Positions 48,801 to 51,800 of a stretch of 64,000 bases of DNA are shown here, piece after piece (positions within the stretch are counted from its first letter, which is position 1; every line of letters starts with the position of its first letter). A program made the position numbers. Source of the stretch: Saccostrea cucullata (lineage: Eukaryota); the NCBI RefSeq assembly GCF_032062105.1, contig NW_026938566.1:372001-436000 (forward strand), read 5' to 3'.

Positions 48801-51800
48801 TAAGGGAAATTATGACTTTGCTGAAGAACATGACCTGGGCATCTTTTTTTTTGTAGTTTCTATTGCACGAAGATTACTAGATCCTTTGGCAGAATTGGTG
48901 AAAATTGATCCAAAGCACATAGGTGTTGGTCAGTATCAGGTGAGAAAATGATGGAAACTGGACCAAGATACAGGAATTTATTAATCGTACAGTCAAGTAA
49001 TGTTAATTTGCCCAAGGGTTCCCAGCTGATTGTCTTGATAAAGAACTAAAAGAAGTGTATGGACTTGTGAAACTTTTTTTGAGTAGTAGCTATCAATGTA
49101 AATTCTGTTCCCAACAGATTTCTTCAAGGCCCTGCTAAGTCCAGATTCCTGTTAAGTTTGTAATTTTTTTGTTAAAAAATGAAAGATCAAATATGAAATT
49201 GAAATAGAAATGCAAAGTTTAAATCAAAGTACTCAGAAGTACAGAGAGCCGGGCTCATTTACAGAGTAGAATGGATTTCTTACATGAATCACGTTTATAT
49301 TCTGATGAAAAAATTATTTTAAAACTATCAATATAAATGATAAGACACTGACAGTGAGTTTTTCAATCCTTTATATTCTGATGGGGTTAACATCCTGCCT
49401 TGAACAGGATCACATAAGCCGGCAATTGCTCTTTGAGCAATAAGCCCGGCTAAAAAGGGATAATAATTAATTGAAGGAAAAATTATATGAATAAATAAAA
49501 TAGAAATTGAACAGAGTAATTAATAATCAAAATTAATTGACTTACTATGTGTTGTACACAGATTGATAGACGTGTGCTTGCACATTTCAGCATGATATAC
49601 CAGAGAGTCAGTTAAAGGCAGCGTTAGACTCGGTGGTGGAAGAGTGTGTCAGCTTTGTTGGGGTGGATCTAAATACAGGCAGTGAGGCCTTATTAAGGTG
49701 AGCATCAGGTAAGGCAGTGAGGCTTGTTAAGGTGAGAATCAGATAAGGCAATGAAGCCTTGTTAAGGTGAGCATCAGATAAGGCAGTGAGGCCTTCTTAA
49801 GGTGAGCATCAGATAAGGCAGTGAGGCCTTGTTTAGATGAGAATCAGATAAGTCAGGAAGCCTTGTTAAGGTGAGCATCAGATAAGGCAGTGAGGCCTTG
49901 TTAAGGTGAGCATCCGATAAGGCAGTGAGGCCTTGTTAAGGTGAGCATCAGATAAAGCAGTGAGGGTGAGCATCAGATAAAGCAGTGAGGCCTTGTTAAG
50001 GTGAGCATCAGATAAAGCAGTGAGGCCTTGTTAAGGTGAGCATCCGATAAGGCAGTGAGGCCTTGTTAAGGTGAGCATCAGATAAAGCAGTGAGGCCTTG
50101 TTAAGGTGAGCATCAGATAAAGCAGTGAGGCCTTGTTAAGGTGAGCATCAGATAAAGCAGTGAGGCCTTGTTAAGGTGAGCATCAGATAAGTCAGGAAGC
50201 CTTGTTAAGATGAGCATCAGATAAGGCAGTGAGGCCTTGTTTAGGTGAGCATCAGATAAGGCAGTGAGGCCTTGGTAAGGTGAGCATCAGATAAAGAAGT
50301 GAGGCCTTGTTAAGGTGAGTTTTCAGATAAGGCAGTGAGGCATTGTATAAGATGAACTTCCGATTTAAGGCAGTGAGGCCTTCCTAAGGTGAGCATCAGA
50401 TAAAGCAGTGAGACCTTGTTAAGGTGAGAATCAGGTAAGGCAGTTAGGCCTTGTTAAGGTGAGCATCAGATAAGTCAGGAAGCCTTGTTAAGGTGAGCAT
50501 CAGATAAGGCAGTTTGGCCTTGTTTAGGTGAGCATCAGATAAGGCAGTGAGGCCTTGTTAAGATGAGCATCAGATAAAGCAGTGAGGCCTTGTTAAGGTG
50601 AGCATCACATAAAGCAGTGAGGCCTTGTTACATTTCAGCATCCGATAAAGCAGTGAGGCCATGTTAAGGTGAGCATCAGATAAGGCAGTGAAGCCTTATT
50701 AAGGTGAGCATCAGATAAGGCAGTGAGGCATTGTTAAGGTGAGCATCCGATAAGGCAGTGAGGCCTTCCTAAGGTGAGCATCAGATAAAGCAGTGAGACC
50801 TTGTTAAGGTGAGAATCAGATAAGGCAGTGAGGCCTTGTTAAGATGAGCATCAGATAAAGCAGTGAGGCCTTGTTAAGGTGAGCATCACAAAAAGCAGTG
50901 AGGCCTTGTTAAGGTGAGCATCCGATAAAGCAGTGAGGCCATGTTAAGGTGAGCATCAGATAAGGCAGTGAAGCCTTATTAAGGTGAGCATCAGATAAGG
51001 CAGTGAGGCGTTGTTAAGGTGACCATCAGATAAGGCAGTGAGGCGTTGTTAAGGTGACCATCAGATAAGGCAGTGAGGCCTTCTTAAGGTGAGCATCAGA
51101 TAAAGCAGTGAGACCTTGTTAAGGTGAGAATCAGGTAAGGCAGTTAGGCCTTGTTAAGGTGAGCATCAGATAAAGCAGTGAGGCCTTGTTAAGGTGAGAA
51201 TCCAATAAGGCAGTGAGGCCTTGTTAAGGTGAGCATCCGATAAGGCAGTGAGGCCTTGTTAAGGTTAGCATCAGATAAGACATTGAGGCCTTGTTAAGGT
51301 GAGTTTCAAAACAGGCAGTGTGACCTTGTTGTGAGAAGCATGAGGCCTTATTTAGGTGAGAATCAGAGCACAGGCAATGAGGCCTAGTTAAGTGGAGCAT
51401 GACGTCACAGTCAGTGAGGCCTTGTTAAGGTTAGGCTGGCACTAAGTTTCAGGCTAATGTCAATGACTTATATACAATATCTGTAATTTGGCTATCATAA
51501 AATTGTTTATTTTAATATTTTAGAAGAGTTGCTGGGTTGAATCTTTCAAAAGCCAAGAGTCTCATAGAGAGAAGAGAGAAGATGGGTCCATTTACCAACA
51601 GAAGCCAGCTGAAGTTTGTCAAAGGATTAGGGGACAAATCTTTTCAGCAGTGTGCAGGATTTCTCCGAATTTCCCAGTCTACTTATGTCGTAGAGTAAGT
51701 ATCAGACAATGAGATCAGCAGTATGAAAAGGAAAAAAGTGACATTCATTGAGCTGACTGTTTTTCTAATCTTTTGATTTCTGTTGTTTCTAGTGTGGAAA

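What the first reader, a model, noticed from the sequence alone, without database searches (positions are those of the whole stretch)
49678..51433. ~50 tandem copies of a 5' splice site: exon-junction-derived minisatellite in SRBD1
Seen: the 35-bp unit is the last 20 nt of exon 12 plus the first 15 nt of the intron, so most copies carry AAG|GTGAGC, identical to the real donor. Reading past the first donor hits an in-frame stop immediately (TTA AGG TGA), so any downstream donor gives a premature stop. Variant units recur at 280 bp (8 x 35; e.g. 50661 and 50941), indicating block-wise expansion. The array fills ~95% of the intron. Inference: a natural test of how the first of many equal donors is chosen; possibly a length-polymorphic, NMD-coupled dial on SRBD1 expression or a U1 snRNP sink.
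Basis: partly seen in the sequence, partly recalled or inferred. Interest (0 to 1): 0.7.

Follow-up and report, generated by a model that had tools for sequence, protein, structure and literature searches.

The report
Oyster intron filled with donor-site repeats
An intron of an oyster SRBD1-like gene is almost wholly a 35-base tandem repeat copied from its own exon-intron junction, so the splice donor recurs dozens of times; this kind of repeat is already known from human and lancelet genes.

Summary
Window 49677-51440 is a 35-nt tandem array of 47.5 copies by TRF and 51 units by my segmentation. Unit 1 is the last 21 nt of coding exon 12 plus the first 14 nt of intron 12.

The gene is the SRBD1-like gene of the oyster Saccostrea cucullata, not human. 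One exon is 100% identical to the NCBI protein of that name.

- 28 of 51 units carry the exact donor AAG|GTGAGC.
- 41 strong donor-like sites lie in the 1826-nt intron, 22.5 per kb against 1.3 per kb elsewhere.
- TGA follows the real donor in frame.
- The array fills about 95% of the intron.
- The 280-nt recurrence is a local block duplication, not an array-wide period.

Minisatellites whose first monomer spans an exon-intron boundary are described in human F7, IFI6, CBS, LMNB2 and PDGFA (PMC1557585). In amphioxus they are called "mirages" (PMC3087553). F7 was already used as the natural test of choice among identical donors.

Most likely the first donor makes the mRNA and the rest are silent pseudo-sites. 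The NMD-dial and U1-sink ideas have no support here and could not be tested. I rate it a new member of a known kind, of modest interest.

The parts
37416..53459 (+). Coding span of the SRBD1-like (Tex family) gene of Saccostrea cucullata, found as 17 tblastn segments.
   Evidence: tblastn of database protein P0001 (794 aa) on the window and exact-match segments. Pfam finds Tex_YqgF, HHH_3 and S1 on single exons.
49591..49697 (+). Coding exon 12, 107 nt. It starts in phase 0 and ends with two bases of a split codon.
   Evidence: Sequence. Its 35 codons align with Tex 2oce residues 477-511, E 5.5e-06. It is an exact match to P0001.
49695..49703 (+). Authentic donor AAG|GTGAGC. The intron starts at 49698 and an in-frame TGA lies at 49699-49701.
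   Evidence: The annotated protein and four orthologues read straight across this junction.
49698..51523 (+). Intron 12, 1826 nt.
   Evidence: Exon ends fixed. GT lies at 49698-49699 and AG at 51522-51523.
49677..51440 (+). 35-nt minisatellite of 51 units. Unit 1 spans the exon-intron boundary, units 8-15 are nearly uniform, and units 48-51 are decayed.
   Evidence: TRF; segmentation; unit lengths and 32 distinct sequences among the first 47 units; 38 unit matches, all inside the array.
49706..49714 (+). Donor-like site CAG|GTAAGG, 11 nt downstream of the real donor. It matches the consensus at 8 of 9 positions, against 7 of 9 for the real donor. The same variant occurs in units 22 and 42.
50542..51137 (+). 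Segmental duplication inside the array: units 26-33 against 34-42, offset 8 units (280 nt), with unit 40 an extra copy of unit 39.
   Evidence: 171 of 175 positions identical for units 26-30 against 34-38, and 68 of 70 for units 32-33 against 41-42. Units 39 and 40 are identical. Best-partner list.
50630..50641 (+). Patch in unit 28 that replaces the donor with ACATTTCAGCAT. This 12-mer also forms exon 12's own acceptor at 49582-49593.
   Evidence: Only these 2 matches in the window, 0.03 expected. Alignment with the acceptor and with its unchanged lag-8 partner, unit 36.
51441..51523 (+). Non-repeat tail of the intron, 83 nt: an AT- and T-rich run ending in the acceptor TTTTAG.
   Evidence: Sequence. 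The array ends at 51440.
51524..51694 (+). Coding exon 13, 171 nt, the helix-hairpin-helix part of the protein.
   Evidence: Pfam HHH_3, E 2.9e-16. Tex 2oce 513-562, E 3.6e-08. 100% identical to P0001.

Best explanation
This is a junction-derived minisatellite. It is of the kind called "mirage" in amphioxus and known from human F7, IFI6, CBS, LMNB2 and PDGFA.

Origin (inferred): a 35-nt piece spanning the end of exon 12 and the start of intron 12 was duplicated in tandem. Unequal exchange or slippage, including block duplications of several units, then amplified it to about 50 copies. What was probably an intron of about 100 nt grew to 1826 nt.

Splicing (inferred): the first copy is the real donor and makes the SRBD1 message. 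The roughly 40 downstream donor-like sites lie in the intron and are removed with it. The first donor is preferred because of its position. It is the first 5' splice site met after the exon's 3' splice site, which is the "oriented scanning" or exon-definition behaviour shown experimentally for F7.

Consequence: rare use of a later donor would give a message with an immediate stop, expected to be degraded. The array itself probably has no dedicated function.

Shown here: the anatomy, the origin from the exon junction, the in-frame stop, and the block duplications. Inferred: which donor is used, and the neutrality of the array.
For: - Anatomy: 51 units, with unit 1 spanning the boundary.
- The exon part is ancient coding sequence, so the copying went from exon to array. 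Exon 12 aligns with Tex 477-511 and exon 13 with 513-562. The junction residues are invariant in 5 of 5 SRBD1 proteins.
- The NCBI protein for this locus joins exon 12 to exon 13 at the first donor.
- The array shows typical minisatellite turnover: a uniform core (units 10, 13, 14 and 15 identical), decayed 3' edge units, and block duplications.
- There is no sign of selection on the donors. The donor columns vary as much as the rest, 2.78 against 3.23, rank 10 of 35 windows. G+1 is lost in 6 of the 46 units 2-47.
- No copy of the unit lies elsewhere in the window.
[quoted passage not shown] In LMNB2 and PDGFA only the authentic donor is used (PMC1557585).
- Amphioxus mirages duplicate splice sites without giving aberrant mRNAs (PMC3087553 and PMC3902484, passages).
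Against: - No transcript data were available. Use of the first donor rests on an automatic annotation and on protein conservation. These show which product is functional, not how often other donors are used.
- In IFI6 and CBS the two nearest pseudo-sites are used as well as the real donor (PMC1557585 Introduction). Some leakage here is therefore plausible.
- In vitro and HeLa work with two strong 5' splice sites 45 nt or more apart found almost exclusive use of the intron-proximal, downstream site (PMC3413131, passages). That would predict the opposite choice.
- A donor-like site with a better consensus match, CAG|GTAAGG at 8 of 9, sits 11 nt after the real one.
- All the splicing precedent is from mammals or amphioxus. 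None is from molluscs.
Confidence: 0.7

Rival explanations
1. Leaky decoys act as an expression damper. A fraction of transcripts splice from the +11, +34, +69 or later donors. All of these carry the in-frame TGA and are removed by nonsense-mediated decay. SRBD1 output would then fall with array length or composition, which is the reader's "dial".
For: - 40 strong donor-like sites follow the real one, and 27 of them are identical to it over 9 nt.
- The stop lies at 49699-49701, with several exon junctions downstream.
- IFI6 and CBS do use their two nearest pseudo-sites (PMC1557585).
- The +11 site matches the consensus better than the real donor.
- Predicted local accessibility does not set the first donor apart: 0.60 against 0.45 +/- 0.10, rank 4 of 41.
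Against: - The donor positions in the array show no extra conservation.
- In F7, LMNB2, PDGFA and the amphioxus genes the repeats do not disturb splicing.
- In F7, pseudo-sites with consensus values up to 91 did not compete.
- There is no expression or polymorphism data for this locus.
Confidence: 0.2
2. U1 snRNP platform. The array holds many U1 particles on the nascent transcript. This would protect it from premature cleavage and polyadenylation, retain it on chromatin, or titrate U1.
For: The density of U1-complementary sites is 22.5 per kb, against 1.34 per kb on the rest of the + strand.
Against: - The intron holds no AATAAA or ATTAAA to be suppressed.
- About 40 sites on one gene's pre-mRNA are few beside the cellular U1 pool (general knowledge, recalled).
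- The donor columns are not preferentially conserved.
- None of the papers read on the known junction minisatellites reports such a role.
Confidence: 0.03
3. The array is an assembly artefact, or its length is wrong. Tandem arrays of 1.7 kb can be collapsed or inflated in assemblies.
For: No reads were available to check. Arrays with identical units (units 10, 13, 14 and 15) are hard to size.
Against: - 32 distinct unit sequences among the first 47 units.
- An ordered pattern of variants and block duplications.
- Clean unique flanks that are conserved exons.
- No N in the window.
An artefact would not create a junction-derived array, so at most the copy number is off.
Confidence: 0.05
4. A satellite or transposon-borne repeat inserted at the start of the intron and only happens to resemble the exon end.
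For: Bivalve genomes carry many dispersed and tandem repeats. The window has others, such as the 168-nt repeat at 43002-43454.
Against: - The register runs without a break from 21 nt inside a conserved coding exon into the intron.
- There are no terminal repeats or extra sequence between exon and array.
- There is no other copy of the unit in 64 kb on either strand.
Confidence: 0.02

Closest known systems
Human F7 intron 7 minisatellite (37 bp, 5-9 copies). Source: Borensztajn et al. 2006, PMC1557585; abstract, Introduction and Discussion read.
   Same: The first monomer spans the exon-intron boundary. The authentic donor is followed by identical pseudo-donors. The array is intronic and the unit length is similar (37 against 35 nt).
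   Different: F7 has 4-8 pseudo-sites, against about 40 strong ones here. Its exon share of the unit is 4 nt, against 21 nt here. For F7, silence of the pseudo-sites, their latent function and length polymorphism were shown by experiment. Nothing of that is known here. One is a mammal, the other a mollusc.
Human IFI6 (6-16) intron 2 minisatellite. Source: Turri et al. 1995, as summarised in PMC1557585. The original paper was not held.
   Same: It has many reiterated donors: the authentic one plus 25 pseudo-sites. In number it is the nearest case described in the papers I read.
   Different: In IFI6 the two nearest pseudo-sites are used constitutively. From my recollection, not from a call, the unit is 12 nt, so the extra isoforms stay in frame. 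Here the unit is 35 nt and a stop follows the first donor at once.
[quoted passage not shown] Source: de Stanchina et al. 1997; only the title seen in the reference list of PMC1557585, plus a summary in its Introduction.
   Same: The repeat fills most of the intron and repeats the junction. Only the authentic donor is reported as used.
   Different: LMNB2 has a 100-bp unit and 10-15 copies, against a 35-nt unit and 51 units here.
Amphioxus "mirages" (Adh3, troponin C, globins, PGBD5). Sources: PMC3087553 and PMC3902484, passages read.
   Same: They are minisatellite-like tandem duplications of exon-intron boundaries in an invertebrate. Many units keep their splice signals. Regular splicing is reported undisturbed. 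They show concerted evolution with the edge units left out.
   Different: The reported copy numbers are small (3-6 for globin BflGb6) and the unit lengths are 10-160 bp. Some duplicate the acceptor side. This is a different phylum. The second, 3-copy repeat at exon 5 of the same oyster gene (41691-41828) looks more like these.
Human CBS intron 13 minisatellite (15-20 repeats). Source: summary in PMC1557585.
   Same: It is a junction-spanning array with reiterated donors.
   Different: Two pseudo-sites are used in CBS. Usage here is unknown.

Membership tests
Junction-spanning ("mirage"-type) minisatellite | Head-to-tail array of a unit of about 10-100 nt. | tested here: met
   Period 35, 47.5 copies, 87% matches. 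51 units, 39 of them exactly 35 nt.
Junction-spanning ("mirage"-type) minisatellite | The first monomer spans a real exon-intron boundary. | tested here: met
   Unit 1 is 49677-49711 and the exon ends at 49697. The exon ends are fixed by alignment with Tex and by exact match to the annotated protein.
Junction-spanning ("mirage"-type) minisatellite | The donor sequence is reiterated in the intron. | tested here: met
   28 exact AAGGTGAGC, all in the array. 41 sites match the consensus at 7 or more of 9 positions.
Junction-spanning ("mirage"-type) minisatellite | The reiterated donors stay silent, or only the nearest few are used. | not testable with these tools
   No transcript data. Only the annotated protein uses the first donor.
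Junction-spanning ("mirage"-type) minisatellite | Copy number varies among alleles (VNTR). | not testable with these tools
   Only one haplotype was available.
NMD-coupled unproductive splicing switch | The alternative site introduces a premature stop upstream of later exon junctions. | tested here: met
   TGA lies at 49699-49701, and at least four coding exons follow.
NMD-coupled unproductive splicing switch | The unproductive isoform is actually made and rises when NMD is blocked. | not testable with these tools
   No RNA data.
NMD-coupled unproductive splicing switch | The regulatory sequence is under constraint. | tested here: not met
   The donor columns are no more conserved than the others within the array: 2.78 against 3.23, rank 10 of 35. 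Conservation between species could not be tested.
U1 telescripting or U1 platform element | Cryptic polyadenylation signals nearby that U1 binding would silence. | tested here: not met
   No AATAAA or ATTAAA in 49698-51523.
Dispersed satellite or transposon-borne repeat | Copies of the unit at other loci. | tested here: inconclusive
   None in the other 62 kb of the window. The rest of the genome could not be searched.

The most novel reading that the evidence does not exclude
The array would be a working, copy-number-dependent attenuator of SRBD1 in oysters. A measurable share of transcripts would splice from the +11 site, from later decoy donors, or through the acceptor copy in unit 28, and would then be destroyed by NMD. 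Alleles with different array lengths or compositions would set different SRBD1 levels. With about 40 strong donors, it would also be the most extreme natural substrate for deciding between the "most upstream wins" rule and the "intron-proximal wins" rule of 5' splice site choice.
Probability: 0.12. Interest if true: 0.55.

Novelty: new member of a known kind. Interest (0 to 1): 0.3.

Why it matters
If the first donor is indeed used cleanly, this locus extends the F7 result, that position beats sequence among identical 5' splice sites. It extends it from 5-9 donors in a mammal to about 40 in a mollusc.

It also shows that "mirage"-type duplication of splice junctions is not confined to chordates. 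The same gene holds a second, small one at exon 5.

Two published pictures disagree. One says the most upstream site wins (F7, PMC1557585). The other says the intron-proximal site wins when both are strong (PMC3413131). An array this long would separate them sharply in a minigene.

For SRBD1 biology and for oyster genomics it is a curiosity, and a possible length-polymorphic marker.

Tried and rejected
- **Rfam on the whole window.** 0 matches at gathering score.
- **Pfam on single exons.** The exon 11 and exon 12 peptides gave 0 families. Their identity came from the PDB Tex alignment instead.
- **RNA structure as the discriminator.** Exon 12 plus 4.4 units folds better than shuffles (MFE -79.5 kcal/mol, z -4.10), because units can pair with each other. 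The local unpaired probability of the donor 9-mers does not single out the first: 0.598 against 0.452 +/- 0.103, rank 4 of 41. I rejected this as an explanation. The F7 authors report the same negative result.
- **Constraint on the donor columns.** None seen.
- **Array-wide 8-unit higher-order repeat.** Rejected in favour of local block duplications. Base-level lag identity decays because of indels, so I did not use it.
- **Segmentation scripts.** My first two attempts failed, one through bad gap settings and one through a time-out. One search replaced them.
- **The listing of cluster members for the accession of P0001.** The database was switched off and I did not pursue it.
- **Turri et al. 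1995 (PMC306954).** Not held. I cite it only through PMC1557585.
- **Literature searches.** Searches for a report of this array, or of junction-spanning repeats in bivalves or in SRBD1, found none. The library is limited to open papers, and supplements were closed.
- **Abalone hit (PMC6905558).** It describes a 27-bp intronic minisatellite. The passages read do not place it at a junction.
- **Collections not searched.** Genome contigs holds only bacteria and archaea. Whether the unit occurs elsewhere in the oyster genome or in related species therefore stayed unchecked.
- **Spliced model.** I searched the exons one at a time. I neither built nor searched a joined coding sequence.
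Full report
**What the window is**

The window has 33.6% G+C, a CpG observed/expected ratio of 0.46 and no N. I searched the exons flanking the finding one at a time and built no joined coding sequence.
- The 55-residue peptide of the downstream exon is 100% identical to the NCBI protein [quoted passage not shown] (P0001, 794 aa). It is 75-78% identical to the Crassostrea and Magallana proteins. In all, 28 proteins reached E <= 0.001 among 36 candidates.
- tblastn of P0001 on the window gives 17 segments between 37416 and 53456. 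Nearly all of the protein is reproduced letter for letter.
- I therefore take the window for hooded-oyster DNA, not human.
- Single exons carry Tex_YqgF, HHH_3 (E 2.9e-16) and S1 (E 1.9e-16) domains. The gene name SRBD1 is right.

**The exon-intron frame**

- Exon 12 is 49591-49697 (107 nt). Its 35 whole codons align end to end with residues 477-511 of Pseudomonas Tex (2oce, E 5.5e-06).
- Exon 13 starts at 51524 and aligns from residue 513 (E 3.6e-08). The one residue between is the codon split by the intron.
- In an alignment of five SRBD1 proteins (three oysters, a Magallana fragment and a planthopper), L514 R515 R516 V517 A518 G519 L520 N521 across the junction are invariant.
- The first GT, at 49698, is therefore the donor that gives the conserved protein. 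The last 21 nt of the exon are old coding sequence, so the array was copied from the exon and not the reverse.

**The array**

- TRF reports 49677-51330, period 35, 47.5 copies and 87% matches.
- A wraparound alignment to the modal unit gives 51 units from 49677 to 51440. 39 of them are exactly 35 nt.
- Unit 1 is 21 nt of exon plus 14 nt of intron.
- Units 8-15 are almost uniform. Units 10, 13, 14 and 15 are identical.
- Units 48-51 are decayed. The remaining 83 nt of the intron (51441-51523) are unique and end in TTTTAG.
- The intronic part of the array is 1743 of 1826 nt, or 95%.
- A 33-nt unit with up to 3 mismatches matches 38 times. All matches are in the array on the + strand, and none lies elsewhere in the window.

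**The donors**

- AAGGTGAGC occurs 28 times in the window, all in the array. AAGGTGAG occurs 35 times, all in the array.
- Of 147 GT dinucleotides in the intron, 41 match CAG|GTRAGT at 7 or more of 9 positions:

| Site | Count |
|---|---|
| AAG\|GTGAGC | 28 |
| AAG\|GTGAGA | 5 |
| CAG\|GTAAGG | 3 |
| TAG\|GTGAGC | 2 |
| AAG\|GTGAGT | 2 |
| TAG\|GTGAGA | 1 |

- That is 22.5 per kb, against 83 sites in 62,076 nt (1.34 per kb) on the rest of the + strand.
- The frame of exon 12 meets TGA at 49699-49701, so every later donor leaves a premature stop.
It matches the consensus at 8 of 9 positions, better than the real donor at 7 of 9.
- The gene's other donors are ordinary.

**Internal history**

- Mean unit identity is about 0.88 at every lag, with small peaks at lag 8 (0.893) and lag 20 (0.896).
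- The peaks come from local blocks:

| Units compared | Identical positions |
|---|---|
| 26-30 against 34-38 | 171 of 175 |
| 32-33 against 41-42 | 68 of 70 |
| 21-23 against 41-43 | 104 of 105 |
| 39 against 40 | 35 of 35 |

- The mean over 861 five-unit block pairs is 154.5 of 175.
- This pattern of a uniform core, diverged edges and block duplications is the usual signature of unequal exchange in minisatellites. The amphioxus globin paper describes the same for its arrays.

**Tests for function**

- The nine donor columns are not better kept than the others: 2.78 against 3.23 non-consensus units per column among units 2-47, rank 10 of 35 cyclic windows. G+1 is changed in 6 of those 46 units.
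- The intron has no AATAAA or ATTAAA.
- Array RNA can fold (z -4.10). The predicted accessibility of the first donor is 0.598, inside the spread of the others at 0.452 +/- 0.103, rank 4 of 41.
- None of this points to a selected role for the extra donors, and none excludes one.

**What is known**

- A literature search led to Borensztajn et al. 2006 (PMC1557585; abstract, Introduction and Discussion read).
- Human F7 has a 37-bp minisatellite of 5-9 copies whose first unit spans the exon 7/intron 7 boundary.
- Its identical pseudo-donors are functional but silent. [quoted passage not shown]
- The Introduction lists further genes with such arrays:
  - IFI6/6-16: the real donor plus 25 pseudo-sites, of which the two nearest are used.
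  - CBS: 15-20 repeats, with two pseudo-sites used.
  - LMNB2: 100 bp x 10-15, with only the real donor used. [quoted passage not shown]
  - PDGFA: 81 bp x 16-18.
- In amphioxus the same thing is called a "mirage" (Adh3, troponin C, globins, PGBD5). It is reported not to disturb splicing (PMC3087553 and PMC3902484, passages).
- Against a simple "upstream wins" rule, Hodson et al. 2012 (PMC3413131, passages) report the opposite. [quoted passage not shown]
- Searches for such arrays in oysters, bivalves or SRBD1 found nothing, within an open-access library and with supplements closed.

**Verdict**

- The thing is a junction-derived minisatellite, a new and unusually large member of a known kind, in a phylum where I found no earlier report.
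- Most likely (0.7) the first donor is chosen by position and the others are silent passengers.
- A leaky, NMD-coupled damper (0.2) is the live rival. A U1 platform, an assembly artefact and a transposon origin are all unlikely.
- Donor usage, length polymorphism, presence in related species and presence of the unit elsewhere in the genome could not be checked. No eukaryotic genome, read or transcript collection was open.

**Also seen**

- **A second junction repeat in the same gene.** The 21-mer around the exon 5 donor (41716-41736) recurs at 41759 with the donor destroyed, and at 41808 with CAA|GTAAGA kept (family D6).
- **An acceptor copy inside the array.** Unit 28 has lost its donor to a patch that recreates the 12-mer of exon 12's own acceptor. 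There are only 2 matches in the window, with 0.03 expected. Its lag-8 partner, unit 36, is unchanged.
  - The patch is followed 30 nt later by an intact donor at 50669, so a 30-nt candidate micro-exon exists on paper.
  - I found the match after the fact, so its significance is softer than the shuffle figure suggests.

Noticed in passing
window 41691-41828 (+): A second, small junction-spanning repeat in the same gene. About 46 nt around the exon 5 donor (CAA|GTAAGT, intron starting at 41723) is present three times, with spacing 43 and 49. The third copy keeps a donor-like CAA|GTAAGA at about 41813 and the middle copy has lost it.
   Followed up: partly
window 50630-50641 (+), unit 28 of the array: The donor of this unit is replaced by ACATTTCAGCAT, identical to the acceptor of exon 12 at 49582-49593. 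These are the only 2 matches in the window, with 0.03 expected. Its duplicate partner, unit 36, is unchanged. With the next donor at 50669 it outlines a 30-nt candidate micro-exon. It may be a template switch or a gene conversion from 1 kb upstream.
   Followed up: partly
window 49706-49714 (+); also in units 22 and 42 (GT at 50435 and 51135): CAG|GTAAGG lies 11 nt after the real donor and matches the consensus at 8 of 9 positions, better than the real donor. Only 3 of 51 units keep the G that makes this site.
   Followed up: partly
window 42850-43485 (+), 44546-44689; possibly 21420-21737: A repeat of about 165-168 nt sits in about 3-4 tandem copies in intron 6 of the SRBD1-like gene, with related pieces 1.2 kb downstream. 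A similar-looking translated stretch near 21420-21737 was seen only by eye in the ORF list. Pfam finds nothing in it. It is probably a dispersed bivalve repeat.
   Followed up: no
window 33343-34344 (-): An intron-less 333-codon open frame with a rhodopsin-family 7TM receptor domain (Pfam 7tm_1, E 6.3e-21), 3 kb upstream of the SRBD1-like start and on the other strand.
   Followed up: no
window 18311-18700 (+): An exon ending in a KA1 kinase-associated domain (E 2.8e-20). It is probably the last exon of a MARK-type kinase gene; that name is my inference.
   Followed up: no
window 54754-56317 (-) and 59234-59467 (+): On the minus strand, just after the SRBD1-like gene, lie exons of a Rad51-family paralogue (E 4.5e-09 and 2.2e-10). 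Further on, on the + strand, an exon has a weak RAB3GAP2_N match (E 0.0071, below the curated cut-off).
   Followed up: no
window 55009-55242 and 53566-53685: Two further two-copy tandem repeats: 117 nt x 2.0 inside the Rad51-family gene region, and 59 nt x 2.0 just after the SRBD1-like stop.
   Followed up: no
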